Positions 4,416 through 54,300 of a DNA stretch of 64,000 nt are shown here, piece by piece; within the stretch, counting starts at the first letter, position 1, and every line of letters begins with the position of its first letter. The position numbers and the translations under genes are program-made. Location of the stretch: the NCBI GenBank assembly GCA_016179745.1, contig JACPCP010000018.1:9258-73257 (forward strand), written 5' to 3'. The notes beneath the pieces were generated by a model. It saw nothing but the letters and a program-made list of their open reading frames with translations. It searched no databases and was not told where the DNA came from. Origin of the DNA: Candidatus Omnitrophota bacterium (GTDB lineage Bacteria > Omnitrophota > Omnitrophia > Omnitrophales > JACQLI01).

Positions 4416-4465
4416 AAAGGCGGGATGCGGCCCCGGAGAGGCTGCCCCGGCCGGGATTAGGCGGA
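4416..4465. repeat. 50-nt direct repeat, copy B (contains stop and last two codons of giant ORF 1)
   Basis: Matches 3080-3129 at 48 of 50 positions. Bases 4457-4465 (ttaggcgga) are the Ser-Ala-stop of the giant ORF on the minus strand. Confidence 0.9.
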
Positions 4466-7400: not shown

Positions 7401-10400
7401 GTCCGGACAAAGGCATCTTTAATCCTCCCATAAACGTCCCAATAGAGGAAATCCCAAACTCGTTGTGAAGTAACGATCAGGATGGCTGCGACAAGCGCAA
7501 CCGCGAAAATGAAGAAATAGCCGATTCCATTAAACACGAATGATGGTATTTCGAAAAAGGGTGTAGCCGGCGTTTGACCGGAGGGCCTGGTAGATTTTTC
7601 CCACGGGACCTCTTCACCCCGTTTTCTTGCCTCCAGTTCTTGCCGCAATCTTTCCAACTCATCTTTGATTTTTGCAATTTCCTCCGGCAGGACGAAGGGG
7701 ACCTCTCCCCCAAGGTTGACGACGAGCCTTGTGATCCGCAGTCGGACCTCGTCGGTCTTCTTCTGAAGCCGGTCGAGTTTCCGTTCCGCTTCAAAAGGGT
7801 CCTCTTCGGCGAGGAACTCATCGATGGCCCGAGCAATCTCCGCCAGCTCCGTATCCAGTTGGTTGAGTTCCGCCGCAAGCTTCTCGGCATCTCCCCCCCC
7901 AAGCTCAGGGACCAATTTAAGAAGTTCCAGAATGAGAGGGAGATCCTGCGCTTCCTCTTCCCTCAATTGTTCTTGATCCTCCAAGGGAGAGAGCTGTTTC
8001 CTCAGTTTGTCCCGGTTAGACTGGATTCGATCGCTCAGGCGAAGGGCTCGTTCCATAAGATCCTGCTTGTCGAGGGGCTGAGCTTCCTTGGGCGCAGATT
8101 TCTCGGGAGGGGTTTTGGGAAGGGGGGTGAGTCTCAACGGCCCCGGTTTCGGTTTTTCCTCCTGGAGAATCCGGCGGATTTCATCCACAATGTCTTTTAT
8201 GGAAACCTCTCGAACAACTTCTTCTTCGTTGACGATACGCACGCCCGGGCCCTTTCCATCCCGTTCCAGCCGGTCCAAGACCCACCGTATTAACTTTTCC
8301 CGTTCCGGTTGAGGAAGCTTACGGTAACGGCTTTCCAGTTCCTCGATCGCCTTTTCAAGTTCTTCCATATCTTTTTCGATCCCCGGCAGGTCCACTTCTT
8401 TCTCAATGATTTCTTCGATGACGCGTGTCAAAGTAACCGTGACTTCCGTGGGAATCGTTGCTGGCGAAACGGCGGGGGTTTCTTCTTCGGGGGCGAGTTC
8501 TGGAGGCGCCGGCTCCCTTTTTTCTTTTTCCGACAGATGGACCAACCGTTGTTTCAAGTCCCTTGCCCGCCTTAACAGCTCTTCTTTCTTGTTGTCAGGA
8601 GGCTGCCGACTTTCCACCGTAATCTCTTGCGGTTTCTCTTGGGAAGGAACGGCTTTTTCCGTGGGCTCCGGTTTTTCTCTGACGACTTGTTCCTCTCCAA
8701 GGGGTGGTTCGAGCAATTCGACAGGTTCTTGAGGTTTCAGGCCCTTCTCCGTCGTTTTTCCGGAAGCCTGCTTTTTCTCGACAACCCGCTTGCCCTCTTC
8801 CGCTACCAGCTCAAGGGCTTTAAATTCCTTCTTCAAGTCCTCTGGCAGAGGTTCTTCTTCCGGTCTGGGGGCCTCAATGGGTCTTGGCGTCAGCTTTTCT
8901 TTCTCCAGTTCGGGCATCACAACCAGCTCCCCTCCCTCCACCTCTTCCTCTGCTTCGGGTATTTCTCCAAAAAGCTGTCGGCGTAGCCGTTCCATTTCCT
9001 GTTCGACTTCCGAAATTCCTTTCGGGACTGAAACGGAAATCCTCCGCCCCTCATCAATGATCTCGACATCCAGGTCGAGGTCGTCGCTTAATCCCTCCAT
9101 CTTTTTCTTCAGGCGGTCCAGTTTTCGCCTCGCCTTTTTCTTGTTTTCCTCCGACACAATTTTGTCGACGTCGTTTTCAAGTTCCCCAAGAGCCTTTTCC
9201 ATTTTCTCAAGTTCTTTTTTCAGCGCCTCAGCATCTCTCCCGTCGAGATTGGGCACAAGCCGCACCACTTCAAAAATGAGGGTGATCGGGCCGTCCAGCA
9301 GGAACTCTTCTCCCTCCAGGGCCGGACTGCTATTCCGGAGCCTCTGTTTTTGCCGTTGGATCCGGTCGTATAAATCGAAGAGCCGATTCATGAGGTCTCT
9401 TTTTACCGCATCGTCGGGCGGGATCGGTTCGTGCCGGGGGCCCGCTTTTTGTTCGGTCGCCACGACCGTGGATTGGGGAGAGGGCTTGTTCAAAATTTGC
9501 TGTAGTGTTTCGCTTGTTCGTTTGGAAGCAATACACCCCGCCCCGCAGAGCACCGCCGCCGTAGCGGTCAAAAGCACCTTCTGAATCGTGCTCATTCGCG
9601 CTTCGGAGCGACTTTTTAGCTTCTCCAAGAGATTATTCAATTGGGTTTCAAAGCGAGTTGCACCCTCCTGGTTCCTCAGCTCCCGCACAAACTTGGTAAT
9701 TCGAGCGTCTGTGCTTAAATCCGGATTTCGAGTAATCGCCACCTCAAGTACGGAGATTGGATGCTCGAATCGCCAGAAAGGTCCCTCAAGATCCTTTAAT
9801 CGTGTGAGGTAATCCAGAAGGACATCAGGCCTTAACGTAGAGGAAACACTCGCATGGATAAACTGCTCCATGACTTCGCTTGCCCGGTTTCGAACCTCTA
9901 TCGAATTGTCTGGCGTCACCCGCTCCAGAATCTTATCCACTAATTCAGTGTCGATAAACCCGGCGGAAATCAAAAATGACCAGCCGACCAACTCTTCTTT
10001 CGCTCCCGTGTTCCCATCCAAAGCCTCCTCAACCAGGTGCACGACAAAGTCACGCGTCAATAGGACCCGCGTTGCGTGAGCAATGTAATCGACTAATTGA
10101 TCCCTGGCCTTTTTAGGGCGTTCGACCCCTGTTCCCGTAAGCCAGATGTCTTGAACGAGACCTAGCACAATCGAATTCAGCCGTGGTTCGTCATAACCGA
10201 GGACCGGACGCACCCTGCTCGCCAAAAAGGATTTGTTGACTTGCTCCTTGGAATGCACTTCCCTTAGAAAAGAGGCAAGCTTGTCAAACTTCTGATTCCC
10301 CCCGAGCTTTGCATACTGATGCAGCCAACCATCAATCTCCGGCTGTTTGCGCTTTGCCTCTGGCTCAGTCAGCTCTATGGACGAATCAATTCTAAATACC

Positions 10401-13400
10401 CTGACCCCCGCCCGCGCTTCGGAGCGGGAGGCTAGGGTTGGCGTCCAAGCTGGTTTAGCCCCCTTAACAACCCGGAAGATACCGTGGCTTTCAAGATTAT
10501 GACGGATTTGGTCGGTGATTTTTTTTTGTCCCCCTGGCGTTGAAGGATCGATCACACCAGTGTTTACAGCTTTGAGAAGAGCCTCGACTGTTTTCGCCGG
10601 TTTCTGGTCTTGGCCTAACGACACTTGCCGGAGTGAATAGAACTCGTCGGTGTCCGTATCAAATAAGAGGTGACCGTCTTTTAGCATTTCGAGGAGCCAT
10701 TTCCATTGTTGGGTGGTCTTGAGCTTGTTGCTGCCGGCTCTCACTAGCGCCTCGATGAGTTCCAAATTGTGCAGGAGGACGAGACGGTAGGTGTCGTGGC
10801 GGACCCCCCTGACCCGTTCTTCAATAATCTGGTCAGGCCGACTCAAAAGCTCCAGTAATTCCCCCGAGTCATTCAATCCCTCAAACAAGGGATCTGGACC
10901 GACTCTTTGAAGCTGTGCTTCGAGGCGTAGTTTCGAGCGTACCGCGGCGAGTCGCAACAGCTCGAAATAAAAAGACGGCTCTTGAAATTTTCCAAAGCTT
11001 CCAAGATCGTTGACATCCTCTACATCAAAAAGCACTCCTTGGCGATCATCCCATTCTGCGGGATTCCTCTTGGCGAGAAACTTAAATTGAGAAGCCGCTT
11101 GCTCTTCTGCGATGCGTACCGGGGGCGTTCGATAGCCCCCCCGATATGGTAGAAACGGGGTTGAAGTTAGAAGCAGAAAGAGTGGAATAAAGAAGACAAT
11201 CCAATTCCTTTTTAACTCCGGTTTTAACCTCGGCATCGCGTCGAAGAATCGTCTCGCAAAGGGAACTCTTTGGGAATCTCCTTTTTGGGTCGTGAGAGTG
11301 TCGTCTTCAAGATTCCGCGCTTCGGAGCGGCGGAGGTCCGTGGGCCACTGACTTATCTCCCCCGGAAACGGTCCGTAAAGTTGCATATCTTTTTCCCGCG
11401 GGTCAAAATCAATATTGGACAATGTCTCAAATGTCAGCATTGCACTCCCAGAATAACGTAAGAAAAGATGTGTTTTGTTGTTTATCTTCCCCAAATAGAC
11501 ATGGAGGTAGTAGTCTCCTCCGAACGAACGGTCCTTACCGAATAGTAAATCTCCTTCTTTTATAGATTCCAGGACACTTTCATCCGCTGACTGGCGTGGT
11601 TTCTCAGAGTGAAATTTATTAAGCTGCTCGATGAGCGGAAGGGCATTTTCCCGGAGGCCAGATCTAAGTTCTAGCTCCAGTTCGTTCCTTCGTGACTCTA
11701 TTTGATCGTCAGTGAGGCCCGGCTCGGCGGCGCGGGTATTCCTTGTTATCACAAGGGCCGTTAACACGCTCCAAAGCGTAAGGCCGTCTTTGCCTTTTAA
11801 AACTGATGTTTTCGTCTGGTATTCCCCTGTTTCAGGGTTCCGTATAGTCTTTTCCAATTGGAATCCACCAGGGTTGAGAATAGCTGAAAATACCTCCTTT
11901 GCCTCGAAAGTCAGTAGAGTTTCGTCTAACAGCACAGAAAGCGCGTTCGCGTGTTTTTCCAGTTGTGATGTTAGATCTTGACTCCGTGCTTCGGAGCGGA
12001 GGACAGGACCCTCTCCGAGGTCGCCGGTAAGTGTGTCGAGGGAAGTAGAAATTCCCAATTTTGCGATTTTCTGATTCACCTCGGCTAATGCCAAGGAGGC
12101 GGCGTCAGCTCCCTCTTGGGTAAACTCCTTTTTGGCGTTGTCCGCAATCATCTCGAGAATGGCCTGACCTGTAATGACAATTAACCTGTTTTCATCACCC
12201 GATCCTTTCATTGCCGTAAAGATTCTGTCCCTAAAAGTAGTGATGCCGGGAAATGGCCCTTCTGATTGTTTTGCATCGTCAATGGCATTCCGAATATAGC
12301 CCTCCCATTCTACTGCCAACTTTCCAAGGCCAATGGCGTGCTTCCTAATTTCCTTTGTCGCTTCAGGAAACTGACTGGCAAGCAAACCGTCGGTTTCCTC
12401 CTCCAACATTCCTTCTCGCAACCAATATTTTGCTACCTCCTCAATCCGCTGATTTGTCGGTACTTCTCTGGCCATTTGCACGAGGGCGTTAGCTTTCCGG
12501 AAGTACGCTTTGGCCGCGGACAGGATGGCTTTTTTGATAGACGGCGACTCTGCGTCTGGAACACTCCGCCCTAGCTCCTTACCAAATTCAGGAAAATTAC
12601 CATGTTTCTTTCTTATTTCTCGTAATGTGTTAGGAAGGTTTTCCCAGTTCACGCCTGAGGCGCCATTTTGGGCCTCTGCGTCTGACAAAAGTTTGTTGAT
12701 AGGGAACCCCAACTCGCTCATCTTATCCATAAAAGTCCGCCATGCCTGTTGTTCTATGAAATCCACGGGGACGATGGCAGTCGCCCGCGCTTCGGAGCGG
12801 AGAGCCTCGTCTGTTTGGTTTCGAGCCTCCGTAGCAGAAGATTCGATTTGGCCGATTTCGTCCAAGAGCTCATCCGGAGATCTTTGAGAAGAGACAAGCG
12901 GTTTTGTCAAGAAAATAGAATCGAGAAGTTCTTCAAGCACGACAAGGGCCCTTGTGGCATCGCCCGATTCAAGGAGGCGCGCGGCTTCCTCGGATCGTTC
13001 CTTAAGCTCGGCCAGTTTCTGGCTTAATTCCAGGCTCTCTCTCGGGGCCAGCGCAATTGCCTGGTCAATTTTGGGCAAGACCTCCTCTTTAAGCGCCGTT
13101 AGCGCTTCCTCCGATTCAGTCGCCCGCGCTTCGGAGCGGTCAGGGAAGAGCTGGGGGAAATCGGTTTGAAGGGAAGCGATTGCCGAGGAGACTTCTTCCG
13201 GGACCTGGATGGGATCCATGAATCCTTGTTCGGCATAACCAGGGAATCTGCGGATTTCGTCAATCCCTTTTTGAATCTCCAGGATCGCCGTTGCCTGATT
13301 GAGAGAGGAGGCGGTGAGGCGAAAGGGACTTAAACTTACCACTTTCCGGATTCCGATTTTAGACAGTGATCTACCCTCGTTAAATTGTTTAACCAGTGAG

Positions 13401-16188: not shown

Positions 16189-16743
16189 GTGAGCCAGAAA
16201 GGAGTTACGATTTGGTTTACCGGGCTGCCAAGCTCGGGGAAGTCCACCATTGCCCGGGTGCTTGAGCGGCGCTTCCGCCAGGCAGGGCTCAAGGTCGAAC
16301 TTTTGGATGGGGATGTGGTCCGGACGAATTTGAGCAAGGGTCTCGGCTTCTCCAAGGAAGACCGGGACGCCAATATCAAGAGGATTGGGTTTGTTTGTCA
16401 TCTTCTCACCCGGAATGACGTGATCGCCATTGCGGCGGCCATTTCCCCTTATCGGGAAGTCCGGGATTACAATCGCCGTCTCATCGGGAATTTTGTGGAA
16501 GTTTACGTGAAGTGCTCGATCGACGAATGCGAGAAGCGGGACGTGAAGGGGCTTTTCAAAAAGGCCCGGGCCGGCGAGATCACGGGCTTCACCGGCGTCG
16601 ACGACCCCTATGAAGAACCTCTCCATCCCGAGGTCGTCTGCGACACGGAAAAGGAATCCGCCGACCAGTCCGCCGAGAAGGTGATTAGGAAGTTGGAGGA
16701 ATTGGGGTATCTTAGCGAAGCGTCGTCACACTCGTCATTCTGA
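16189..16743 (+). CDS. cysC: Adenylylsulfate (APS) kinase
   Basis: GTG start preceded by aaggagg. VTIWFTGLPSSGKSTIA P-loop and LDGDVVRTNLSKGLGFSKEDRDANI are hallmark CysC motifs. Confidence 0.9.
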   Translation: MSQKGVTIWFTGLPSSGKSTIARVLERRFRQAGLKVELLDGDVVRTNLSKGLGFSKEDRDANIKRIGFVCHLLTRNDVIAIAAAISPYREVRDYNRRLIGNFVEVYVKCSIDECEKRDVKGLFKKARAGEITGFTGVDDPYEEPLHPEVVCDTEKESADQSAEKVIRKLEELGYLSEASSHSSF

Positions 16744-16811
16744 GGCCTCCGAAGGAGGCCGAAGAATCTCAACTCTGAGATCCTTCGGCCGCTACGCGGC
16801 CTCAGGATGAC
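16734..16811. mobile_element. MITE-like nested-palindrome element (family C, gtcatyctgag termini), copy 1
   Basis: The termini gtcattctgaggcc / ggcctcaggatgac are inverted, with an inner gaagaatctc / gagatccttc pair. The cysC stop codon (16741-16743) lies inside the element. Confidence 0.7.
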
Positions 16812-29006: not shown

Positions 29007-29756
29007 TTGACATCTCTTAAAGATTCAGCTAACTTACTACAGTCAGCTAGTAAATTTATGAAAGATAAAAGCCTGCTCAGGGCCCAACGGGCCATTCTAA
29101 ATCTTGTCGCCGGGAAATATCCGCACGTTTACCTTGTGGGAGGGACCGCGATCAGCCTCCTCTATCGACACCGGATTTCTGAAGATCTCGATTTCTTCAC
29201 GCAGCGGTATTCGGGAAAATTACATCGGGACATTGCAGCCTGGATTGAAAGCCAAACCGGCTTCCCCTCCCATTTGATTGCAGAGGAAAAGCGGAGGACT
29301 TATGTGCCGATGGCGGTTTACGAGTTTGAAACGGGGAAGGACGCTGTTCTCAAGGTTGACTTTGTGAAGGACATTGCGGCCTTGATCCAGCCAAGAAGGG
29401 ACGACGGAATCGCTTCTCCGGAGGATGTCTACTATCGAAAGATCTTGGCCGTCATTGGATGGATTGCGGGCCGATCCCGGACCGGCCAGGTGTTGGCGGG
29501 CGGACGCCAAAAAGCAAAGGACCTCTTCGATATTTTTTATTTATCAGCGAATGTTCTGCCGTTGTCGATTTGGTTCCCCAGACATTTCAGCCGAGAGGCC
29601 TATGAGCGGCTGGCCGCCTGGTATCTCGGCGTTCCCCGGCAAAGAACGGTGATGGAGTTGCTCGAATTGGTCCCCGGCTGTGACACGAAGACCATTTTCA
29701 AAGAGCTGGACGACCAAGTCATTCACAAACTGAATCGAGTTTATCTCAGCTTATGA
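29007..29756 (+). CDS. AbiEii/AbiGii-family nucleotidyltransferase toxin-like protein
   Basis: HVYLVGGTAISLLYRHRISEDLDFF matches the GGTAL...R.S.DiDf core of DUF1814/AbiEii. TTG start at 29007; alternative ATG at 29058. Confidence 0.65.
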   Translation: MTSLKDSANLLQSASKFMKDKSLLRAQRAILNLVAGKYPHVYLVGGTAISLLYRHRISEDLDFFTQRYSGKLHRDIAAWIESQTGFPSHLIAEEKRRTYVPMAVYEFETGKDAVLKVDFVKDIAALIQPRRDDGIASPEDVYYRKILAVIGWIAGRSRTGQVLAGGRQKAKDLFDIFYLSANVLPLSIWFPRHFSREAYERLAAWYLGVPRQRTVMELLELVPGCDTKTIFKELDDQVIHKLNRVYLSL

Positions 29757-30343
29757 AGAGACAGAACTGGCATTGGGACATTAACCTCTCCTATGGGAAG
29801 ATCAAAGAAATTTTGAAGCGTGAAGATGATCCCCGTTTCCCGAGATTGGCAGGGGCCCTCCTTTCCCGTGTTCCGGAGCCCGCCGAGGTCTTTGGGCTCA
29901 TTTCTCCAGCCGCCTTTTGCCGGCGCTACCGGGCGATCGAGAGAGAAATCCTGTCCGACGAATGGACAAGAGAGAAGGCCGCCTTTTGGAAGGCCACCTG
30001 CCTCCGACTCTCAAGAGAGCTTCGGGAACGGGGTGAGAAAATCAGAAAACCGGGAAAAATCAAATTGGACGATTTTGACCGAACGCTCGTCTCGAAAATA
30101 AAGCAGTGCCGGAAAAACGCCCTCTTGTCTCAAAAAGAATTGGCCCAATGGATGGGCCTGAGCCAACAATACATCTCAGGAGTCGAAACGGGGCGGGAAA
30201 GGGTCACGATCGATTTCCTTAAAAGATTGGCGGGAATGACCCATCAACCGATCGAAATCGTCTTTCAAACCAATTATTCTCCGGAAATTAGGCGGAGCGG
30301 GCGAGGGCGGCCCGGATCTCGGGGTCGAGGGCGAGGCGGTTAA
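29753..30343 (+). CDS. Protein with C-terminal XRE-type HTH (possible cognate antitoxin/regulator)
   Basis: LLSQKELAQWMGLSQQYISGVETGRERVTIDFLKRLA is an HTH_XRE core. Its start overlaps the AbiEii stop. Its 3' end overlaps the giant ORF 2 3' end convergently by 56 nt. Confidence 0.55.
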   Translation: MKRQNWHWDINLSYGKIKEILKREDDPRFPRLAGALLSRVPEPAEVFGLISPAAFCRRYRAIEREILSDEWTREKAAFWKATCLRLSRELRERGEKIRKPGKIKLDDFDRTLVSKIKQCRKNALLSQKELAQWMGLSQQYISGVETGRERVTIDFLKRLAGMTHQPIEIVFQTNYSPEIRRSGRGRPGSRGRGRGG

Positions 30344-33300
30344 AAAATTCCGCAATCTGAGCGAGCCCCCTCGGAGTGACCCGCCGGAATGCCAGGGGAT
30401 TCCTGGGGTCCTTTTCGAGCATCTCCCAGAGAAATTTCGAGCGGTGAACGGCTTCAATCAGCCGGATAAAATCAGGTACCCTCAAACCGGAAAGACCGAT
30501 GACGGAGGGTTCGGCGAAGACGCCAAACCCGTGGAAATTACCGGCGTTTGTCAAGTCCAGGGGGGTGACTGGCGACAGGAAGAAGCCAGCGTCTTTAAAA
30601 TCAGGAGACGTTCGGCTGATTCGACCCGGGTTCAAAGGATCATTTTCTCGATACGGCAGCGGAACTACGCCGGGGGCAGCGGCCGCAATCTTGCTAAAAG
30701 GGATTTGCGCCTCTTTGCCGCCCGCAAAGGCAATACCGACCCTCACCTCTGACCGCACAGCCTCACGCACAAAATTCTGAATTTCTTGAATCGCCTCATG
30801 GTCTGCAAGGTGTTTCGATAGGGCGAGGTCCAGAACCGTAGCGCTTGAGGGCGGGATTCTGAAGCTTGGATCAAAGATGCTGCTCCGGGCCGCCCGATTC
30901 ACGAGCGAGGAAAAAAGAACAGGATTGCGCTGGAGTCCCAAGAAGATCGCCCGGGCGTTTTCAGAGAAACGGGCCCGCTCTCCAAATTTCAGGGCCTCTG
31001 CCGTCGAGACCCGCTCCGTGGCGGCGCCGAGGATGAGAATCCTCGAGGCAACCCCCCGGAAAAGATCTTTAATCCTGACGGGCTCGATGACGGCCGGGTC
31101 TATTTTTAGAGTTGCCGCTAGGATAGCCGCCGCCTCTTCCGCCGCTTGACCAAACCTTTCCGAATCAAGCCACTTGAGCATTTCCTCGGGCGTTTCCTGT
31201 TTCATCATTTCAGCCGCAAGATTCACAAGGGACTTCCGAACCTGGTCCCGCACGATTTCTTTTCGGTTCTTCGATTGTTTTTGCAGCCGGTCGACGAACC
31301 GGTCAAAATCCCCGTTCTCCGTGTAAAGCCGGACCATTTCCTCTGCCGTCAAATCCGGGAGGAATATCTGAAACTCTCCAGCCGCTTCCCTTCTTATGGG
31401 AGCGGCGTCTCGCACCTCCGCCCGCTCCCTGGGCGCCTCCGTTTGGAAAGCCTCAGACTTGGCACTTTCAGAAATGGGAGGGTGACCGGGCACTCCTCCC
31501 AATGCAGTTTCAATCGCGGCACGGAGCGCGTTGCGTTCATTTTTTTCCCACTCACCTAAATCAGTGCGACGGGTCTCCCGATGGAGTCTCTTGAGAGTCC
31601 GTGAAAGGAGATCCCGGCCTTCCTTCTCGCCGTAGGCCTGATACAGGCCGGCGAAGATATCTGAGTAATCGGAAGGGTAAGTAAGGATAAGGTTTCGCAG
31701 TCTAATCAAGATAAATATGAAACGCCTGCCGGAGACCGGCAGTCCCACATCGACAACCCGCACCGTCTTGGAAGAGGCTTTGAGATTGAGGGAGTTAGGA
31801 TCGCGGATTGTCCACCGCCCCCTTGTCTTTTTAAGAATCTGGAAGAGCCGATGCGAGGATTCCCGGGTAACACGACTGGCCTCCTCCTCGATTCTCTCTG
31901 GTTCCGTTTCCTTAACTTGATCCAGATAGCTACTTAGAGAAAGGTAATTCGGTTCATCAATCAATTGTTCAGTCCACATCCCGTACCTTGGACTCCAGGT
32001 CCCCAGGGTCTCGGCGCTGGGGTCCTCCGGTTCATAGAGTTCAATGAGGTGGTCGACCTCCGTTCCCGCATCCCTTTTCCGGGGGAACCAGTTCAGGGCC
32101 ACGGAATAAGGCGTTTCCCCATTTGTCACGTGGATATCCAATCGAAAAACACGCTTTTTCCCGCCGGCATTTAGAAATCGGATTGAGACTTCACGAACTT
32201 CCTGGAGAGGAATTACAACGCCGAACAGGGCCCAAAGGGTTGACTGGATGAGATAGGATCGTCGAAGCGCTTGCTCGACCCTGCTACGAAATTGCTTCTC
32301 AAGCGCCGGGCTTTTATCAGATGAAAGTTCTCCGACAGGAGTGAATTGAAAGGCCGCCTTCGTCTGCGGAGAGTCCCAGAAACTGTTCAGTTGGCTTCGA
32401 AAATAGGTTAAGACCTCCTCCGCCCTCTCACTAATTTCTTCAGGCATTCCGTAACGCCGTCTCCCGTAGAGCTTCCAATAGGTCAGAGCAGACCGAAGTT
32501 TAAGATAAAGGAGGTGACTACCTTCGATCCGGGGATCGATCGAAATGGTTCGGACCTGCTCTAGGAGAGCCATTATTTCCTGGGGGGCGGATGCGTCCCT
32601 CAGTTTTTGAACCAGTTCCTGATTTCGTATCTCAGCACGGGGTTTGGAGTTTTCTTCAAGAAATGCGATCACGCCCGCCAGGGTTGCCACTGAAGGAGAG
32701 AGCGGACCGATAAAACGAGGGGCGGTTTCCTTCTTAAGTCTGTCAATAAGCTCCCGAAGCCAGCCCCTGAGCGGGGAACGGAAGTTCCGAGCGCTGACAT
32801 AAGCCTCCATCGTGATAAGAAACATGGCAATATCTTTAACTTCTCTTTCGAGGCCGCGTTCCCAAATCCAACGGAATACCTCGTCATCTTTTATCGTATC
32901 CTTATATTTTTCGATGTCCCGATGTTGGGGGGTGGATGCAATGGCCCAGTCCGTGAATTGGAAGCCGCCGCCCTTACGGAAGTGGATTTCCTCCTCCCCG
33001 AGGTCACGGTGAAATACGCCTTTATGGTGGAAGAGCTCAAGCGCCCGAGCGATTCTTAGAACGTCACTTAAAACATCTTTTTCATCCCGTCCGTGGCGTG
33101 GACGAAATCGGGGGTTCATCCGGTGAGCCGCCGTTTCGCCTTCAATCATCTCCTCAATCAAGTAGGTCTGGCCGGTCTTGGGAGAGGGACGTTCTGTGTC
33201 CCACCCGGTTCGTGCGGCCGCTTTTTGGATCTGGGCAGCTTCTGGATCCGTCAGGACGCCGGAACCGACAAGGCGGGGCAGATGGGGGGCCAGTTCTTCA

Positions 33301-45300: not shown

Positions 45301-48300
45301 CGTCTCCGGTTAAGCTCCTCGGCGATCTCCCTCAGACCCTTAAGAGTTTCATCGGTGCCGTCGAGTTCCTCTTCAATATTCAAATAGAGACGATAAAGGA
45401 ACGCACCAAACGCCGCACGTTCTTTACGAGTTCCTGAGTCTACCCGTTTGCCGGAGAGCGTTTCTTGGATACCTCTCATTTCCTGAATAATCTTTGCAAG
45501 CTTGAGCCGCTTTCTCCAGTCCTCTTTCTCTTCTTCGAGGAGGTCGCTTTCAATTCGGTCCGCCAACTTTTTTAGATCATCTATTGCGAATTTTTCCTTT
45601 CTCTGAATTGTGGCAAAAGCCGGACCCCCCTTCTCAAGGACCAACACACGGAAATAGCGTTGGATATCGCGCAGGATTTCGTTTGGCTTCCTCTGCCGCA
45701 CCTCGGAGCGGGGGGGAGATTCGAGTGTTTCGGCCTGATCGAGGATCTCTTTGATGGGCTGGGCGAGGGAGGGCTGGGAGCGTGCAAGCCGATCGGACAA
45801 AAACGGGATATAAAGCCAGAAGACTTTCCTCTCGGCTCTGAATTTAGCAAGATGGGTTCGGATTTCATTTACCTGACCGAGAAACTTTTCTTTCTCTTTG
45901 AACTTGGAGGCGCCTCGAAGGCGTTCTTCGATCAGGGCCTCAAGCATTGACTCAAATTCGATTTCGGCCTCGGTCCACTTTTCATAATCCACGGCCTCTT
46001 GGACAATCGAATCGGCTTCGAAGCCGCTTAGAGAGAGTTTTTGGTGAGTTTTGACATAGAGCTGACGCAGGGTCTCCAAATCAGTGCGGCTTGCCGCGAG
46101 GGCGTTAACGGCTTCACGGTTCAACTGTTGAATGAATTCAAATTTTTGGATCACCCGCTTTTCCCAATCGGTGTATTGTCTCCCCGAGCGAGCAAACCGG
46201 ATCGCCAAAGGTCCCTCTGTGTAGCTTTCCGAATCGTCGCGCCAGCGTTCGATCGTGATTGGAACGAGGGTTCGTTCTCGAGGGTCATAAGGCCCCGTTG
46301 CGCTCAGGAAGATATCAATGAACTTGTCAAACTCATCCTGAGGATGGGCTGTGCTCTTGACCTCCTCCAAAAGTTCGCTGAGATACCCAAAGAAATCAGT
46401 GATTGCTTGGATTTTTACTGAAGGCGGGGGAATCAAGATAGGGACCTCCTGCTCAGCGGGGGAAACCGGGGAGGCTGGTTCCGGCGGTAAAGGTGCCACG
46501 GTTTGGTTGATGATCCAGGGACTGGGAAGCCTTTTGGGTCGGCGGAAGAGGCGGGCCACGGGGACGGTCAGCGCTGTGAAAAGTTCGAGAAGAATAAAGC
46601 CGGCGAATCCTGCAAGCAAAAGAACCCCGTTTCTGAGAAAACTCATGAGCGCAAAGGGATCCCCATAGCGGCTTGTCTCGAGCATCATGACCACTTCGCC
46701 CTGAGGGGGTTGCGTAATCTCTGAGGATTTACCCTGAGGAATCTGCGTAATCGCCGGGGCTCCAGCGTCATGAAGTGAGGTCTCTTTAGGTTCGCCTCCA
46801 GGCGTTTCAACTCCGCTTCCTGGTTGACCCCGGCCCGAATGATCAGGCGGCATTGAATCTCCGGCCTTCTCCCGCAGCTCCCTCGCCGTATCCAACATCC
46901 ATTCCGGCGTTCCCTCTCCTTCAGTGAGCATCTGATTTATCTCTTCTTCAAGCTTGTTAACCGCGTCTTCGATTATCTTAATAAGCTCAGTAAGAGAAAT
47001 CACAATCTCAACTTTCCTTTCCGTAGATGTCCGCTCGCGAAGCTCGCGAAGCTGGCGAAGCTGGTCAGGTTCCCGCTTAGGGCGTCGCACGACTTCCCTC
47101 TTGGGTAGTTTTTTCATGAGCTCTTCCAGGCGATTTAGCTTTTCTCTAAGCTGGTCCAGCTGTTTTAATAACCGATCGATCGTGTTATCGTCCAAATCGA
47201 GAATCTTTAGCTCCTCCAGCACACTGTCCAGCACGTCGTCCATCCCTTCTAGGTTCCACAACGCACCGATGGCGGGGTACAACTTCGAGCGCAATTCCAA
47301 GATGCGCCGTTGTAACTCCTTCATCTCCCGGAAAAGCCGTTCCTCCTGGGACTCGGCGGGCCGTTTTTCTCCCAAAATATCAAGCTGAGAATATTTAGGC
47401 GCGCCTTCTGCACCGGAGGGAGCATCGGAGGGATTGGGGGCTGTTACCTGAGATAGCATCTTTTGAATTTCATCAAACGGATTCTTGGGGGGAGTATCTG
47501 GAAAACGAATAAAGGGACCGTCAGGTCCTTTCAAATCCAGTTTTTTCCGCTGAAACACAGGCCAATCAACCTTTTTGCCGGATTGGTAGATAGGCCTTAA
47601 TGCAGGCTCAAGTAGAGTTAACAGCTCCTGGGCTTCCCGGAGGAGGGCACGGATATTTTCTTCCCCCCAAGAGCGTTCTCTATTTTCATAACTTTCTTTT
47701 AGGCTCGCCATGATCCGATCCAGCTCTTTCGCAAGTGGGACGAGGCGGCTGCGGTCGTTCGATGGAATCCAGGGGAAGAAACGAGACAACCTATGTGCCA
47801 CATCCTTCGCAAACGCGAGGACTACTTCCGGGCTCGCCTCAGGTTCTTCCGGTGTTAGCGGGGGAGGCTCCTCTATGCGTTTCTCACCCGGCCAGTCACC
47901 TCCGGGCAGCACCTCCGGCGTTTGATCCGGCGGTTTCAGGGTGCTGACTGGCTGCGGCTCCTCTTTGGATTGGGAAGACGGGGGCGCGACACGTGTTCCG
48001 GAGGCCCCTTTTCCTGCCGACGCTTGTGCTCTAGACGTCAGGTCTTTGCGAGCTTGGGGCGCCGGTTGGTGCGGCTCTGATTTTTCCGGGGCCGTTCCCT
48101 CAATAGCCGGGGGCTTTTGGACCTTTTCCTGCTTAAGGTGTCTCGTGGCTAACCGGAGGTCCCGGCGGGAGGTAATCTTGCCTTCTTGCACTTGGCGGAG
48201 AAGCGATTTTTTTTCCTCTTTCGTGGTTTTTTTCGCTTCTTGGATTTTGTTTTCCAGTTGTTGGAGCTTACGGAGGTACCGGTGCATCTGGTGGGCTGCT

Positions 48301-51300
48301 TTCCGGATGGCGGAATCCGGGTCATTGAGCAGAACCTCGATGTCTTTCGGTTCCCTAGCGTTGGCAACCTGGTTAAACTTATCCTGGTGAGTCTCTTCCG
48401 GCGAACCTCGGACGGGATTCAAAGAACTTCCCAGAATAAGAGCAGCAAGGCCGACGCCGACCACTTTTTGCCAAACCGAAGGGCCCGAGATCGCCTTGCC
48501 CCCGCCCAAAAATCGGTCCGGGCCTTGCAATGACGAGGGTTGTTCCATGGCCATCTCAGTGCCGGCAGGGGAACCGGAAATCGCCGTATTATGCGCAAAA
48601 ATGCCGTTGCCGATGAAGTTGTGGGTGCCCTGGACTTCGATATCGTAGACATGCTCCAAGCCCACATAGTCGATCGAGACAATCCGGTCCCAGAGGAGAT
48701 CAGAAGCCGGGTTGGAAAAGGGGATAGGCAACACTACTCCCAACGTTGCGTTGCCTGTTCCCTTTTCCTGCGGAGCGGCTTGGGCGTAGGCAGAAGGGAG
48801 GCTGAGTAGTCCTCTCCAGGCAGTTGTGGTATACTTTGCCGCATGAAACGACGAAACGGTTTCAACCGCATTGTAATTGATCCGGCCGTTCGCTTCGGGA
48901 AGCCTTGTATCAAGGGGACCCGAATTACGGTTGGAGACGTCTTGAATCTCCTGGCGGCGGGCTACACGGTGGACGAAATCCCCGAGCAGTATCCTGGGGT
49001 CACCAAGCAGGACGTTTCCCAGGCGATCGAATTTGCGAGTGATCTGGCTGAGCATCCCGCCAAAGTAACAAACCTCACATAGCGCGTCTCTTTCTCTGTG
49101 AAGATTCTTGCCGACCACTGTGTCCACACCGATGTGGTTCTGGCTTTGAGAGAGGCGGGGTTCGAGGTCATCCGCGTCTTTGAAAAGGGCATGGCCGGCG
49201 CCCCCGATAAGGATATTTATGAATACGCCCAGCGGCATTCCATGGCCGTCCTCAGCTACGACTTCGACTTTGGAAATGTGGCCCGATTCGATATCCTCCG
49301 TTCGCACGGGGTTGTCCTGGTCTATGTTGAAAGGATGACGAGATCCAAGATTATCGAGCGCACGGTCGGTTTCTTTGAAGAGAACCGCCGGCGGAATCTC
49401 TCCGGAAAACTCCATCTGATTGAGCCGCACGGGACCGGCACCTGGCCGGGGTAAACCCGCCGGCACCCCGATCTCATTGCCGACCCTTAACTCCTTCACC
49501 TTGATCCAGGCCCCAACATTTCTCGACAAGCCCGGAGTCAGGTGATACACTTTTTCCAGTGACGGAAAGGAATTACGCATGAGGAAGAACGGGAACAAAG
49601 CACGCAGCCTTAGAAAAACAAAACCGCTGGTCCCCACAAAGCCTGACGTTGGCCACTTCTCAAAATTTGCCTCCCGGGCGGGAGGAATTTCCTTGCCGGA
49701 CAGGTTCCGGGCCGCCGTCGCCTTTGATTCGGAGAAAAGACCCCGTTGGTTTCTCTTCGATATGTTTGCTTTTTGGGAGCTCCTTTGCCGGATTGATAAC
49801 GTACTCTCCAAAACTTTGTCTGACAAAGAGTACTGTTCAACAAATCCCGTCGGTGGCCTCATTGACGAGATCGAAGGCCGCTGGCCGCTCAAAGAGGAGT
49901 CCAAGTCGGCCGTCCGCCGCGAATACGAACGGGCACTGCGGGACATAGCCGCTGGCCGATTCTCCCGTCTCACTGTGTGATCTATCAGTTTATCTTGACT
50001 CGCCAGGCGGAGGAGGACCTGGCGAGATTTCCCGATTCCCTGTCGCACCCGATTAGAAAAAAGCTTGCTTATTTTCTCTCGGCCTCCGACCCCATGAAAT
50101 TTGCCAAGCTCCTTGTGAACCTGCCCCCTGCGACCCACCGGTTCCGCTTTGGAGACATTCGGATGAAGTTTTTCCGGGACAAGAATATTTTCTACATCAC
50201 GGGAATTGACCACCGAGGTAAAGTCTACCGATAGCGGCACCCCGATCTCATCGCCAACCCTCAACTCCTTCACCTTGATCCAGTTTCCTTCTTTTGCCTT
50301 TTGACTTTTGCCTTTTTCCGCCACACTGCGTGACGGATCCGCCAAGCTGTGTGGCGGAGACTTGACGAGATACGGATGATTCGCCGTGGTCTTGATCGAT
50401 CTCCCGGAGGCGGTCGTCAAGCGGTAGACAGGCTTCACTCCCATATCAAGCAGGGCATTAATTCTCCGTGGCTCAATCTTCCCGGTTTCTTCATTTAAGG
50501 AAAGAACCCGGTCTCCGGGCCTGACTTCGGTAATGGGGATTTCTTCAAGCCTTTCGTTATCCTGACGTCCCCGACGCGTGTCATCCTGAGTCCCGCGAAG
50601 CGGGGCGAAGGATCTCAAACCCTGAGATTCTTCGCCCGCCAAAAGGCGTGGCGGGCTCAGAATGACGGGGTTGGTGTTGCGTATCACCGGCAGTCTCGTA
50701 TCCCCCGTGACGCAAAGGCCTTCCGGATCCTCGGAGCTTCTCACCTCGGTTCTCTGAAGCTCTTCGAGCGAAGCAGACCGCGCCTCGGAGCGGCGGCGCG
50801 CAATTTCTTCACCGAATATCCGGCCAATCTCTTTTTCTATCAGACCGGGCAAGCTGACATTTGCAGGGACCCCGTTGCGAAGGAAAGGATGACCGTAGAA
50901 GCTGCCTCCGAGCGGGACGGCCTCAATCCGATCGTAGTCATCCGTGCCTCGCACACGCCTGATGGCGAAATTACGTATACGGGTGTCTGGCTCGGCTTCA
51001 TAGGCTTGCAGCATCAACAGTTCTATTTTTGTTGGGTCTCCTACGATTGCCTGGGCAATCTCCAGAGCCAATTTTTGCAGTTCAGTTTTCTGGGGTTGAG
51101 TGGCGGGCTCTTCTTTGAAGAAAACCCACCCTTCGAAGATGCGGGTAATTAGGTTAGCGTCGACCGGAACCTCCTCTTCGCCTTCATCCTTTTTCAGAAC
51201 AACTTTTTCCTCGCCGGTTTTCACCCCGTTTAATTCTTCAAAAGCCTTGCGGAGCTGGCCGGCAAGTCCGGAATCCGTGACCGTGAATTTAAACCCGCCC

Positions 51301-54300
51301 TCTTCGTTCTTTTGAGACATTACGGCCCCGCTCTGATAGGCCAACAACACTTCTTGGGCCGCGAGGTCAAGGAGATGCCCCTCTGGATCGCTCACCTCCG
51401 GCCGTTTTCCTCTCAGGAATTTCAAAAATGGGATAACCGGATCGACTTGGGCGCGCTGCAGAGTTCCGGCTGAAGGGGCCGGAGGAATGTCGGGTGCTTG
51501 GGTCGGGACCTTAAAGTCGGTTTTGATAATTTTGTGATAAAAACGGGGGCCCGTAGTGGATACGGTTGGCTTACTTAACGTGATATCCTGCCAATGTAAA
51601 TCAGAGACTTCAGCAGTCCTGGGGTTGACCTTCCATGTCACACGCACCGCAGGGACCGGCGTTTCCTGATAAGTAGCTTTGGATGGTACTTCGGTCAGGA
51701 ATGTGCTCCATAGCTTATCTGCAAGGGCTTTCAGAACATGATGACTTGAGCCCCAGAACGCCTTACTGAGGCGGAATAACTCATACACAGCCAAAGCCTC
51801 AGTTTCTTCTAATTGAATCTCGAGGCCATTCTTTTTCAGGGTCACCTTGCCGGTTCCGTCCACAGAAATAGTGCCCGGCACCTCTCTGAGGATCCCTTTC
51901 CCCAGCTCATCTTGCCCCTGGATTTCAAACGTAAGTAGATCGTCGCCAATTGTTACGCTGACATCCCTGCCACGGTACTTCATCGTAGTAGCGAACCCCC
52001 GCACCTCGGCGCGGAGCATGGACTTGGCATTTGCCTTTAAAAGTTGGGAATTTGCCGCTGTCATTATTGCCTCGGTAGATGGGGAAAACACTCTGTTCCC
52101 TTTTGTAATTTCGTAGACTACATGAACGCTTCCGGCATCCTGACCCTCATCATCTAGAGCGACGATAAACTGTCCGTCAAAGCGCCAATAGGTCCCCGAA
52201 TTGTCCTCGAGCAGATCTCCTTTTGTAAGGATCTGAAGGATACCTCTACCTGATTGCTGAGCTTCGGCCATCTCTGAATCAAACGCCACTGGGCGTTCTT
52301 TCCTCTCTTGCTTTATTAAAGCTTCTCTTCGTGCATCTCCGTTTCGATCCTCAAACCGGCTCCCCCGAAAACCCTTCTCATAAGTTTTCCCCAAAACCTC
52401 CTGCGTCTTCCGCACCTCGGCGCGGGCGGAGACGACGGGTTTTTCTGGAGAAAAGGGGACAGAGCCCCTTAATTGTTCAAGGACGGCGGAGGCGACGGCA
52501 CTTTCCGGAGACTGGTCCCGCAATTCCGCCCGGATCGATTCGGGAAGCGAGGCCGCAATGCCCCCGATTTTGGCCCGGAGTTCATTTCTAATCATCCCTT
52601 CCGGCGGAGACTTTGTTTCCGGGCTGGCCGATTTTTGAGTGACTTGCTCGATCGACTTCGCAAGAGCGCGGACTTCCGGCCGTCCCGCCAGGAGACCCGC
52701 CGGAACTCTCCCCGCAAGTTCCTCAAGCGTTTCTCGAACAGCGCCGGGTTTGGCCAGCACTTCAAATTCGGATCGTAGCGGGCGAGAAGGAAGGGCTCTG
52801 GTTCGGAGGAAATCCAGGATTTCGGCTCGGGGTCGTGAGGTTGGAAAAAGCGAAGCGCCGGCCAGGTGCATGAGGGCGGCGGGTTTTGGTTGAGGGGTTT
52901 CGCCCAAGAGGCGGGAGACGTTTTCGACCGTGAATTCTTTTCGGTCCGCCAATTGCCGGAGGCCGGAGACGAAGGAATTAAATTGGATTTGAAATTTTCC
53001 CCAGAGGGAATTGACGGCCTCCTCGGCGGAGCTCTCGAGGGCCTTTTCCAGCTCTTTTTGGATTTCCTCCCTCGATCTAGAGGCGCCGTCGGCGCCGAAT
53101 TTGCCGTGGTAAATTTTTAAAAGGAGATCAATGTAACGAGTGTATTCGCCGGCCTCACCGGTGCGGCCTTCGTCGGCGAGCTTGCGAATCACCTCGTCAC
53201 GCCAGAGTTTGAGATTCTGTTTGAAGTCCGGCTGATTGAGCCCTGCGACGAGTCGCTCCGTCGAATGTCTCACGAAGGCGTCGTAAAAGGTCGTCTTGAG
53301 ATATCGCTTGTAGGAAAGATCGCCTTTCATCACGGCCTCGTAACGCTCTTTTCCTTCGAGCGAACGGATCCTGGGCGTGACGACGGCGTAAGAATAGCCC
53401 GCTTCCTTCAAACTTTTCTCAAACCCTGTTGAGTGAAACCCTCCGGCAAGGACAATCGCTGTTTGGCTTTTCGTTTTCTTGAGAAGTTTTTCGAGATTTT
53501 CGTGAAACACCCGGTCCCTTTCGAGGACAATCCGGTAAAATTCAAGCGCCGGCCGGACCGCTTCCCGGTTAGAAGGATCACCCAGGAGTTCGAGGTAGGA
53601 ATCCGGGGCTTTTTGATAGGCGTCGAGCCGGTCTCGATCGAGTTCGAGACGGACGAGATCCTTGAGGAAGCGGAGTTTTTGGTATTTGAGGGCGAGCGAG
53701 CGCTCCTCCGGTGTTTTGATGAGGGACTGGTCAGCCTCTGAGAGAAAGGTCTTTAGCTCGTCAAAAAGTTTTGTGCCCCTGATCGTCGAAAGGGTTTCGA
53801 CTTGGCCGATCAAGGCTTGCATTTGGGGACTCAATTTGGGTTTGAGACCGAGGGGCCTTCCTGCCTCAACAAGATATTTCAGGAATTCGCCCAAATCCAT
53901 TTGATCGGTGACAAAGGCCTGAGTGCGCCGGTTAAATTCCATCTTGCCCTTCTTGTCGAGCTGGGCGAGGTGTCCTTTTCGGAAATCTTCCGCCAGTCTT
54001 CGGACCTCAATTTCCAACTGCTTTTTGGGCAGAGCGGAACCCTGCTTGAGGGAATGGAGAAGCTGGGCCAAGTGGGGATAGTTGATTTCAGAAGGTGCGG
54101 CGGCCTTCAAGGAGGAGGCCAGGTAATTCAGGAGCTCAAACAAATGGGAGCGTTCATCTCTAAAGGCCTCCACCTTTTCGTGAAAGGTATTCAGATCCGG
54201 CGAAAAAGCCTTCTTCCGTTCCCGATCCAGGCCTGCCTTGATCTCCGCCAATTGCTTGAGAAGTCCGTCTTGATTTTGTGCGGCCCTCAAGTAGGCGAGG

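What the first reader, a model, noticed from the sequence alone, without database searches (positions are those of the whole stretch)
49461..50283. TA cassette 2 is bracketed by 49-bp direct repeats with a 774-nt (258-codon) period
The repeats at 49461-49509 and 50235-50283 match at 46 of 49 positions. They duplicate the intein segment encoding WIKVKELRVGxEIGVP. The duplicated unit is an exact multiple of three, so the insertion or duplication preserved the host frame. This looks like a site-specific or microhomology-mediated cassette insertion into the same hotspot already occupied by cassette 1. It hints at a recurrent integration site.
Basis: seen in the sequence. Interest (0 to 1): 0.6.

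Follow-up and report, generated by a model that had tools for sequence, protein, structure and literature searches.

The report
Duplicated intein strand flanking antisense toxin-antitoxin cargo
The 49-bp repeats are two copies of a short conserved piece of an intein (a self-splicing protein insert) inside a giant bacterial gene; they mark the seam where a second toxin-antitoxin operon, encoded on the opposite strand, was stacked into the intein slot that normally holds a homing endonuclease, and dozens of related inteins carry the same kind of cargo.

Summary
The repeats at 49461-49509 and 50235-50283 match at 46 of 49 positions, 774 nt (258 codons) apart, with sharp edges and none expected by chance.

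Both copies encode, on the minus strand, WIKVKELRVG(N/D)EIGVP. This is the last conserved motif of the N-terminal splicing half of a 709-codon class-1 intein (48588-50714). The intein interrupts an 8175-codon ORF.

The intein's endonuclease slot holds two type II toxin-antitoxin (TA) operons on the plus strand: DUF433/DUF5615, and a RelE/ParE-like pair. The host frame reads through both without a stop.

Among about 60 related inteins from Omnitrophota, Patescibacteria and Elusimicrobia MAGs, most carry one or two antisense ORFs in this slot. Every cargo I could identify by homology to six seed proteins was antisense.

An 81%-identical contig from another metagenome keeps the same repeat-cassette-repeat layout and the same 774-nt period, but has a different neighbouring gene. 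Two further inteins show similar duplications of 48 and 111 nt.

Repeat length varies, the repeat forms no hairpin, the cassette has no terminal inverted repeats, and the window has no recombinase. I therefore favour recombination between paralogous cargo-bearing inteins, filtered for in-frame products, over site-specific integration. I found no report of TA-carrying inteins in the literature searched.

The parts
30288..54815 (-). Host gene: a single 8175-codon ORF with no Pfam domain other than the intein. It is read straight through the intein and its antisense cargo.
48588..50714 (-). Intein, 709 codons, running from Cys1 (TGC at 50714-50712) to the terminal His-Asn (48590-48588). The +1 extein residue is Thr at 48587-48585.
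   Evidence: Pfam Intein_splicing, E=1.5e-21. Motifs read: CVTGDTRL, TTANHPYLV, VYDIEV, GIFAHN|T.
50578..50668 (.). Palindromic MITE-like element inserted in frame between intein block A and the next strand. A second copy lies in an intergenic region at about 16734-16811.
   Evidence: MFE -66.7 kcal/mol for the 126-nt stretch 50555-50680 that contains it
50364..50522 (-). Conserved N-terminal splicing core, RPGDRVLSLNEET...TTANHPYLV (block B). It is 57-89% identical to the family members in alignment A2.
50235..50283 (-). Repeat copy B. It encodes WIKVKELRVGDEIGVP and is contiguous with the N-terminal splicing half.
49977..50234 (+). Cassette 2 toxin, 85 aa, RelE/ParE superfamily. It is codon-aligned antisense to the host frame, and its TAG stop abuts copy B.
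   Evidence: Homologues carry PF05016. A family profile hits RelE-family PDB chains: 2khe at 1.8e-11, 3g5o_B at 5e-9. dN/dS against L004 is 0.21.
49579..49980 (+). Cassette 2 presumed antitoxin, 133 aa, with no known family. It overlaps the toxin by 4 nt and accompanies most, though not all, T2 homologues in related loci.
   Evidence: dN/dS against L004 is 0.11.
49523..49551 (+). Sigma-70-like promoter candidate for cassette 2: TCGACA, 17-nt spacer, TG-extended TACACT. It lies in the 69-nt spacer between copy A and the antitoxin ATG and is conserved in L004.
49461..49509 (-). Repeat copy A. It encodes WIKVKELRVGNEIGVP and lies between cassette 2 and cassette 1.
49098..49454 (+). Cassette 1 toxin, DUF5615 / PIN_10 (Mut7-C-like nuclease), codon-aligned antisense. 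Its TAA stop lies 6 nt before copy A.
   Evidence: Pfam E=6.5e-21
48843..49082 (+). Cassette 1 antitoxin, DUF433, codon-aligned antisense.
   Evidence: Pfam E=2.1e-24
48714..48768 (.). Inverted repeat with 24-nt arms, 75 nt upstream of the DUF433 start. It is a candidate operator for cassette 1 (inference only).
   Evidence: I1
48588..48698 (-). C-terminal splicing half (blocks F and G): LLWDRIVSIDYVGLEHVYDIEVQGTHNFIGNGIFAHN.

Best explanation
The two 49-bp repeats are two copies of the DNA that encodes the last conserved motif (W-x-K-V-x-E-L-x-V-G-D/N-E-I-G-V-P) of the N-terminal splicing half of an intein in a giant, probably Omnitrophota, gene. In this intein family the slot that usually holds a homing endonuclease is occupied by small type II TA operons on the opposite strand. 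They usually sit codon-for-codon antisense to the host frame, so the host frame stays open, the whole insert is translated as filler, and it is presumably removed by protein splicing. The window's intein carries two such operons. The duplicated motif is the seam left when a second cargo module (cassette 2) was stacked next to the first by recombination between related cargo-bearing inteins. Several such inteins, each with different cargo, coexist in single genomes of relatives. The cassette 2 type is found before the motif in some relatives and after it in others, so a crossover inside or beside the cassette yields motif-cassette-motif. Only in-frame, stop-free products survive, because an out-of-frame product would truncate the 8175-aa host protein. 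That is why the period is a multiple of three. Shown here: the anatomy, the homology, the open frame, purifying selection on the TA genes, conservation of the arrangement in a relative, and recurrence of the pattern. Inferred: the recombination route, that the intein still splices, and that the TA operons act as addiction or persistence cargo for the intein.
For: The repeat and its coding content are confirmed.

All intein hallmarks are present.

The host frame has 0 stops across 48600-50234, against 16 and 17 in the other two antisense frames. Synonymous resampling of the four TA genes gives a joint P(0 stops) of about 0.011.

Homologous inteins carry a single cassette of one or the other type:
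- L001, L024 and L025 have motif then DUF433/DUF5615.
- L003, L019, L031 and L061 have motif then cassette 2.
- L006 and L067 have cassette 2 then motif.

Pfam on 110 antisense ORFs of at least 66 aa from the cargo slots of related inteins gave DUF5615 17, DUF433 16, ParE 8, HicA 2 and PemK 1. Every cargo detectable with six seed proteins is antisense, and 40 of 54 are codon-aligned.

L004 is an independent metagenome contig, 81% nt identical across 49461-50316. It has the same 774-nt repeat spacing. Its distal copy has decayed (WFSHSNLGDEIGVP). Homology ends exactly at the edge of that copy, where a different plus-strand ORF ends.

dN/dS between the window and L004 is 0.11 (antitoxin) and 0.21 (toxin), against about 1.3 in the unselected frames.

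Analogous duplications occur in L066 (111 nt, spacing 579, plus 76 nt, spacing 825) and L049 (48 nt in three copies, spacings 192 and 765). All spacings are multiples of three.

One genome (MHFT01, Omnitrophica RIFCSPLOWO2_12_FULL_50_11) has at least three such inteins with different cargo.

The window encodes no recombinase. The repeat forms no hairpin and the cassette has no terminal inverted repeats.
Against: No donor intein and no close single-cargo allele of this particular intein was found. The source genome is absent from the genome collection (best core match 91%). The metagenome scan and the DUF5615 homologue search gave nothing useful. The recombination route is therefore reconstructed from distant relatives whose cassettes are now too diverged (about 40-58% aa) to recombine with each other. 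The edges of the repeat coincide with the edges of protein-level conservation, so homology-driven and site-specific exchange predict the same boundaries here. The 94% identity of the two copies contrasts with dS of 0.6-0.9 between the window and L004. That needs an extra assumption: gene conversion, or selection acting on both copies. Splicing and TA activity are untested.
Confidence: 0.6

Rival explanations
1. Integron-like, site-specific cassette capture. Under this reading the 49-mer is an att-type site carried at the toxin-proximal end of each cassette, and an unidentified recombinase inserts [cassette + site] units into the intein slot.
For: Each cassette is followed at its 3' end by a repeat copy 0-6 nt after the toxin stop. 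The repeat edges are sharp. The repeat-cassette 2-repeat unit is conserved in L004 next to a different neighbour, and homology breaks exactly at the repeat edge. Multi-copy arrays recur in L066 and L049.
Against: The duplicated length differs between cases: 22, 48, 49 and 111 nt, and in L066 it extends into block B. The same cassette type sits on either side of the motif in different inteins. The repeat has no significant secondary structure, and the weak structure predicted is not shared by the two copies. The window encodes no integrase. The motif's conservation is fully explained by its role in the intein fold. The distance from the toxin stop to the motif varies from 0 to 15 nt among inteins (derived).
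Confidence: 0.12
2. In-situ tandem duplication of a [motif + cargo] unit within one intein, by replication slippage or unequal sister exchange, followed by replacement or divergence of one cargo copy.
For: L066 shows two repeated segments (111 nt and 76 nt) flanking two different cassettes, as if a whole unit had been duplicated. The periods are in frame.
Against: Cassettes 1 and 2 of the window are unrelated families (DUF433/DUF5615 versus the RelE-like pair), and outside the 49-mer no similarity remains between the two units. A second event that imports foreign cargo is still required, which brings this reading back to inter-intein recombination.
Confidence: 0.15
3. Target-site duplication made by a transposon or MITE that carries cassette 2.
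For: Direct repeats flank a discrete gene cassette.
Against: 49 bp is far longer than known target-site duplications, and the copies are imperfect. No terminal inverted repeats lie inside the repeats. There is no transposase. The repeat is a conserved coding motif that is present once in dozens of inteins lacking cassette 2.
Confidence: 0.03
4. Assembly artefact: a chimeric join of two intein alleles from a mixed population.
For: The window is probably metagenome-derived, and related inteins with different cargo exist.
Against: L004, from a different sample and assembly, has the same layout and the same 774-nt spacing at 81% identity. The longest exact run shared by the two copies is only 21 nt. 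The junction between the cassette 2 promoter and copy A exists in neither single-cargo architecture. The structure is in frame and stop-free.
Confidence: 0.02

Closest known systems
Canonical large inteins with a nested homing endonuclease (LAGLIDADG or HNH) between the N- and C-terminal splicing halves
   Same: A selfish gene is nested in the loop that follows the last N-terminal splicing motif. The host frame stays continuous. The catalytic residues are retained: Cys1, TxxH, and HN followed by Thr. DnaB-type relatives P0026 and P0028 carry LAGLIDADG domains right after the same W...G(D/E)x(I/L)x(V/L)P motif.
   Different: The cargo is not fused in frame. It consists of independent operons on the opposite strand with at least one promoter candidate of their own. 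It encodes TA pairs rather than a DNA endonuclease. The intein polypeptide contains about 500 residues of antisense filler. Two cargo units are stacked, with a duplicated intein segment between them.
Integron gene-cassette arrays (attC-bounded cassettes, which often include TA cassettes in chromosomal superintegrons)
   Same: Compact cassettes are arrayed in series. Each is followed at its 3' end by a copy of a repeat. TA modules are the cargo. Neighbouring cassettes differ between related loci.
   Different: There is no IntI or other recombinase. The repeat is coding sequence without attC-like folding. Repeat length varies between cases. At least cassette 2 has its own promoter candidate. The platform is an intein inside an ORF, so every rearrangement must preserve the reading frame.
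'Fractured genes': split inteins with a free-standing endonuclease gene between the two halves (from my own knowledge: Dassa et al. 2009, Nucleic Acids Res; not re-read here)
   Same: A separate gene lies between the DNA segments that encode the two intein halves.
   Different: In fractured genes the host gene is physically split into two ORFs that trans-splice. Here the ORF is continuous and is kept stop-free through the nested genes.
Type II TA modules as addiction or stabilisation cargo of mobile elements (plasmids, prophages, ICEs, superintegrons)
   Same: DUF433/DUF5615 (PIN-like), RelE/ParE, HicAB and MazF-type pairs ride on a selfish element, and their proteins are under purifying selection.
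   Different: The carrier is an intein, that is, a protein-level parasite inside a coding sequence. As a result the TA genes face a second constraint: no stop codon in the antisense frame.

Membership tests
Class 1 intein (Hint fold, protein splicing) | N-terminal nucleophile Cys or Ser at position 1 (block A) | tested here: met
   CVTGDTRL, with TGC at 50714-50712
Class 1 intein (Hint fold, protein splicing) | Block B TxxH motif | tested here: met
   TTANHPYLV at 50364-50390. H, P, Y and L are invariant in the 21-sequence family alignment and the Asn is nearly invariant.
Class 1 intein (Hint fold, protein splicing) | Blocks F and G ending in His-Asn, followed by a Cys, Ser or Thr +1 extein residue, in the same frame as block A | tested here: met
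   VYDIEVQGTHNFIGNGIFAHN|T at 48585-48698, in frame and without stops. Pfam Intein_splicing, E=1.5e-21.
Class 1 intein (Hint fold, protein splicing) | Autocatalytic excision and extein ligation | not testable with these tools
   Requires expression and a western blot or mass spectrometry. Indirect support: the frame is kept open through the cargo in most related inteins.
Type II TA system, DUF433 antitoxin with DUF5615/PIN-like toxin (cassette 1) | Both family domains present in adjacent co-oriented small genes, antitoxin first | tested here: met
   PF04255 at 2.1e-24, PF18480 at 6.5e-21, PF18478 at 3.4e-8. The genes are 15 nt apart.
Type II TA system, RelE/ParE superfamily (cassette 2) | Toxin belongs to the RelE/ParE fold family | tested here: met
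   The query alone falls below the Pfam, NCBIfam and PDB thresholds. Homologues at 44-51% identity carry PF05016. The family profile hits RelE-family PDB chains at 1.8e-11 and 5e-9.
Type II TA system, RelE/ParE superfamily (cassette 2) | Upstream overlapping small gene is a cognate antitoxin of a known family | tested here: inconclusive
   The 133-aa ORF overlaps the toxin by 4 nt, accompanies most T2 homologues in related loci (some, e.g. L002, have a different upstream ORF), and has dN/dS 0.11. It matches no Pfam, NCBIfam or PDB family.
Type II TA systems (both cassettes) | Toxicity that is neutralised by the partner protein | not testable with these tools
   Needs co-expression assays.
Integron cassette array | Tyrosine recombinase IntI adjacent to the array | tested here: not met
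   No integrase or recombinase domain in the giant ORF or in the 20 largest other ORFs of the window. The rest of the genome was not available.
Integron cassette array | attC: an imperfect palindrome that folds into a hairpin in single-stranded DNA | tested here: not met
   DNA folding of both copies on both strands gave an MFE of -1.6 to -4.3 kcal/mol and a z-score of -0.3 to -2.0. The structure is not shared between the copies.
Transposon or MITE insertion with a target-site duplication | Short exact duplication flanking an element that has terminal inverted repeats and/or a transposase | tested here: not met
   The repeat is 49 bp and imperfect. There are no terminal inverted repeats at 49510-50234 and no transposase.

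The most novel reading that the evidence does not exclude
The W-motif DNA is more than a passive seam. Under this reading, this intein family has replaced its homing endonuclease with exchangeable antisense TA (and small membrane-protein) cassettes, and it uses the conserved motif as the crossover point of a cassette-shuffling system between paralogous inteins. That would make an integron-like cargo platform living inside protein-coding sequence, in which the TA modules make the intein hard to lose.
Probability: 0.15. Interest if true: 0.9.

Novelty: new variant of a known kind. Interest (0 to 1): 0.75.

Why it matters
Inteins are normally thought of as a splicing domain with or without a homing endonuclease. 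Here a widespread intein lineage in Omnitrophota, Patescibacteria and Elusimicrobia MAGs carries independent TA operons on the opposite strand.

This imposes a double coding constraint. The TA proteins are under purifying selection, while the complementary frame must remain stop-free so that the host protein, here 8175 aa, can still be made.

The arrangement suggests three things:
- a new way for TA modules to find a neutral 'safe harbour' in streamlined genomes;
- a new way for inteins to persist without homing;
- a natural example of long, selected antisense-overlapping reading frames.

There is also a practical consequence. Gene callers suppress either the nested TA genes or the host ORF. 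Neither T2 nor the DUF5615 toxin of this window was on record as a called protein. TA and defence-gene censuses in these phyla may therefore be undercounting.

The duplicated 49-mer is the visible trace of cargo stacking, and it gives a handle for studying how such cargo is exchanged.

Tried and rejected
- Exact-sequence look-ups of the cassette 2 toxin and the DUF5615 toxin found nothing on record.
- Pfam and NCBIfam on the cassette 2 proteins, and single-sequence PDB searches, gave no hit. The toxin was resolved only with a family profile. The antitoxin is still unassigned.
- A metagenome scan with the antitoxin returned only two weak, uninformative loci.
- A homologue search with the DUF5615 toxin returned nothing, so no close cassette-1-only allele (the 'empty site' for cassette 2) could be recovered. 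Only more distant single-motif, cassette-1-only inteins were available (L001, L024, L025).
- The source genome is not in the genome collection (best core match 91%).
- A nested second intein was rejected, because only the W-motif is duplicated (plus block B in L066). Blocks A, F and G are not.
- A split intein or fractured gene was rejected, because the ORF is continuous and is kept open.
- An attC-like structure, terminal inverted repeats and a recombinase in the window were all negative.
- An inverted repeat linking copy A to the cassette 2 promoter (49496-49511 / 49530-49545) is not conserved in L004, so I dropped it.
- Comparing the similarity of the splicing halves with cargo type, to look for a chimeric origin, gave no resolution. 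Cargo types are intermixed among the closest cores.
- Literature searches for inteins together with TA, DUF5615, Omnitrophota or opposite-strand genes found nothing relevant.
Full report
**1. Observation**

The window contains exactly two copies of the 49-mer, at 49461-49509 and 50235-50283. They are 46/49 identical and 774 nt apart, and none is expected by chance. Similarity stops abruptly on both sides.

On the minus strand the copies encode WIKVKELRVGNEIGVP and WIKVKELRVGDEIGVP, in the frame of one 8175-codon ORF at 30288..54815. Two of the three differences are synonymous. The third exchanges N for D, and both residues occur in homologues.

**2. What the repeat belongs to**

The ORF contains a class-1 intein at 48588-50714, 709 codons. 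Its hallmarks are Cys1 (CVTGDTRL), block B (TTANHPYLV), blocks F/G (VYDIEV...GIFAHN) and a +1 Thr. Pfam Intein_splicing scores E=1.5e-21.

The repeated peptide is the last conserved motif of the N-terminal splicing half. Nearly every homologue has one copy, and in DnaB-type relatives the LAGLIDADG endonuclease domain follows it directly.

Between this motif and block F, on the plus strand, lie two operons:
- DUF433 (48843-49082) with DUF5615/PIN_10 (49098-49454).
- A 133-aa ORF (49579-49980) overlapping by 4 nt an 85-aa ORF (49977-50234).

The 85-aa protein belongs to the RelE/ParE superfamily. Homologues carry PF05016, and a family profile hits the RelE-family structures 2khe (1.8e-11) and 3g5o_B (5e-9). 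The 133-aa partner has no known family.

A sigma-70-like promoter candidate sits in the 69-nt spacer between copy A and the 133-aa ORF.

Read in the host's direction, the order is: N-half, copy B, cassette 2 (antisense), copy A, cassette 1 (antisense), C-half.

**3. The host frame is kept open through the cargo**

Across 48600-50234 the host frame has 0 stops. The other two antisense frames have 16 and 17. Three of the four TA genes are codon-aligned with the host frame, so an antisense stop can arise only from TTA, CTA or TCA codons. Synonymous resampling gives a joint probability of about 0.011 for zero stops.

A free-standing homologue of cassette 2 (L011) does have antisense stops in the corresponding frames.

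Between the window and the 81%-identical contig L004, dN/dS is 0.11 (antitoxin) and 0.21 (toxin). It is about 1.3 in the unselected antisense frames and 0.39 in the host frame. The TA proteins are therefore the selected products, and the host-frame translation of this stretch is filler that merely has to avoid stops.

**4. This is a family trait**

A protein search with the intein region returned mostly Omnitrophica inteins. Several aligned through the antisense-cargo part of the query. Their DNA confirms antisense cassettes of one type each:
- L001: motif, then DUF5615/DUF433.
- L003 and L002: motif, then RelE-like cargo (L003 with the AT2-like partner; L002 with a different upstream ORF).

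A scan of GTDB species representatives with the conserved splicing core gave 79 loci from Omnitrophota, Patescibacteria, Elusimicrobia and other MAGs. About 60 non-redundant inteins were analysable. Most have a 500-1400-nt insert that stays open in the host frame and contains one or two antisense ORFs.

Of 110 such ORFs of at least 66 aa, Pfam assigns 17 to DUF5615, 16 to DUF433, 8 to ParE, 2 to HicA and 1 to PemK. Small two-helix membrane ORFs also recur. Every cargo detectable with six seed proteins is antisense, and 40 of 54 are codon-aligned.

Cargo lies after the W-motif in some inteins and before it in others. Cassette 2 relatives occur in both positions: after the motif in L003, L019, L031 and L061, and before it in L006 and L067. 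The before-motif group is the closest to the window's toxin, at 58% identity.

One genome (MHFT01) has at least three such inteins with different cargo.

**5. The repeat itself recurs**

L004 comes from another sample and assembly. It aligns with window 49461-50316 at 81% identity and has the same 774-nt spacing. Its copy B equivalent is intact (WIKVKDLRAGDEIGVP). Its copy A equivalent has decayed to WFSHSNLGDEIGVP.

Homology with the window ends exactly at the outer edge of that copy. There a different plus-strand ORF ends, 12 nt away. The repeat-cassette 2-repeat layout is therefore old (dS 0.6-0.9) and is not an artefact. The cargo on its far side has been exchanged.

Two other inteins show similar duplications:
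- L066 has a 111-nt duplication covering block B plus the motif (spacing 579), and a 76-nt duplication (spacing 825).
- L049 has three 48-nt motif copies (spacings 192 and 765).

All spacings are multiples of three.

**6. Mechanism**

Several observations argue against a dedicated att site, and against a transposon target-site duplication:
- The duplicated length varies.
- Cargo is found on both sides of the motif.
- The repeat has no hairpin potential.
- The cassette has no terminal inverted repeats.
- The window encodes no recombinase.
- The motif is conserved for structural reasons.

The simplest route is recombination among paralogous, cargo-bearing inteins. This could be unequal crossing-over, template switching, or gene conversion during repair. 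For example, a crossover within a shared cassette between an intein with motif-then-cassette and one with cassette-then-motif would give the observed layout. Selection would then act against any product that breaks the host frame.

The 94% identity of the two copies in the window contrasts with the decay seen in L004. This suggests either gene conversion or continued constraint on both copies.

The whole route is inferred. I give it 0.6, site-specific capture 0.12, and in-situ duplication followed by cargo replacement 0.15.

**7. Function (inferred)**

An intein is a phenotypically neutral landing pad, because anything inserted in frame is spliced out. TA operons can therefore reside there at no cost to the host gene. 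In return they may make loss of the intein costly, which would be an addiction function replacing endonuclease-driven homing. The antisense, codon-aligned placement is the only orientation in which a foreign ORF can easily be made stop-free on the other strand.

**8. Novelty**

Full-text searches found no paper linking inteins with TA cargo, DUF5615 or Omnitrophota. The three Omnitrophota giant-gene papers do not mention inteins.

I file this as a new variant of a known kind: an intein with nested selfish cargo.

Two caveats apply. The literature library is incomplete. Assignment of the window to Omnitrophota rests only on the similarity of its intein to Omnitrophota homologues.

Noticed in passing
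window 30288-54815 (-), whole giant ORF: The motif R-[AST]-E-[VAIM]-R occurs 21 times in the 8175-aa protein; my rough expectation is about 0.2. It usually falls at what look like module boundaries (PRAEVR, PRSEVR, RAEARN). Longer linker stretches are also repeated: RRSEARSASLEEL(Q/R)RT(E/D)VRSSEDP twice and ESRRTISESAGFDVRSEVR twice. The intein sits right after one of these (..SSEDPEGL|C), and an intein-free paralogous site exists (..SSEDPAESRRTISESAG..). It may be a processing site or linker, and possibly the intein's homing sequence.
   Followed up: partly
window 50578-50668 and 16734-16811: A strongly palindromic MITE-like element (GTCATCCTGAG...CGAAGGATCTC...GAGATTCTTCG...CTCAGAATGAC; MFE -66.7 kcal/mol for the 126-nt stretch 50555-50680 containing it) is inserted in frame inside the intein's N-terminal half. 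A second copy lies in an intergenic region. Related inteins carry other in-frame repeat insertions at the same spot between block A and the next strand.
   Followed up: partly
L009 1-960 and L010 (ENA metagenome contigs): A cassette 2 homologue (58-62% aa) lies next to NUDIX and tRNA-synthetase genes with no detectable intein. It nevertheless has 0 antisense stops over about 320 codons of AT-rich DNA, against 30 and 14 in the other frames. It may have escaped recently from an intein, or it may sit in an unrecognised host ORF.
   Followed up: partly
L003 6515-6716, L035 6606-6807, L059 2710-2911, L085, L066 801-1023, L001 6289-6496, L036, L057 and others: Two families of antisense ORFs of about 66-70 aa, each with two hydrophobic helices (MERIxxxRREFIAKxxADLGKxIF...; MWDKDRLDVLADFFLDGAK...), recur as the only cargo of many inteins of this family. 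They have no Pfam match. They could be small membrane toxins or something else.
   Followed up: no
L001, L023, L027-L029, L034, L041, L046, L054, L059, L061, L064-L090 (extein flanks): Most non-Omnitrophota members of this intein family are inserted at the same extein sequence...GNVGIGTTSPAQKLHVEG(Q/L)|C...HN|TY(I/L)SGNVGIGTT. This is a repeat unit of large surface or fibre-like proteins, and some proteins carry two or three inteins. Omnitrophota members sit after ...xGL|C and before TY/TA.
   Followed up: partly
P0003, P0004, P0019, P0020, P0024 (Patescibacteria proteins): Related inteins in CPR bacteria carry an NYN (PF01936) nuclease domain. In P0019 it follows the W-motif in the sense frame. 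This would be a fused, non-canonical nuclease in the endonuclease slot, in contrast to the antisense TA cargo.
   Followed up: no
window 4457-15949 (-): A second very long ORF (3830 codons) lies on the same strand, upstream in the window. I did not analyse it.
   Followed up: no
window 29007-30343 (+) and 55022-55975 (+): More TA or defence-type genes flank the giant gene. An AbiEii-family nucleotidyltransferase toxin and an HTH protein overlap the giant ORF's 3' end, and a Fic/DOC protein lies just upstream of its 5' end.
   Followed up: no
window 48714-48768: An inverted repeat with 24-nt arms (83% complementary, 7-nt loop) lies 75 nt upstream of the DUF433 start, inside the intein's filler region. 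It could be an operator for cassette 1.
   Followed up: no
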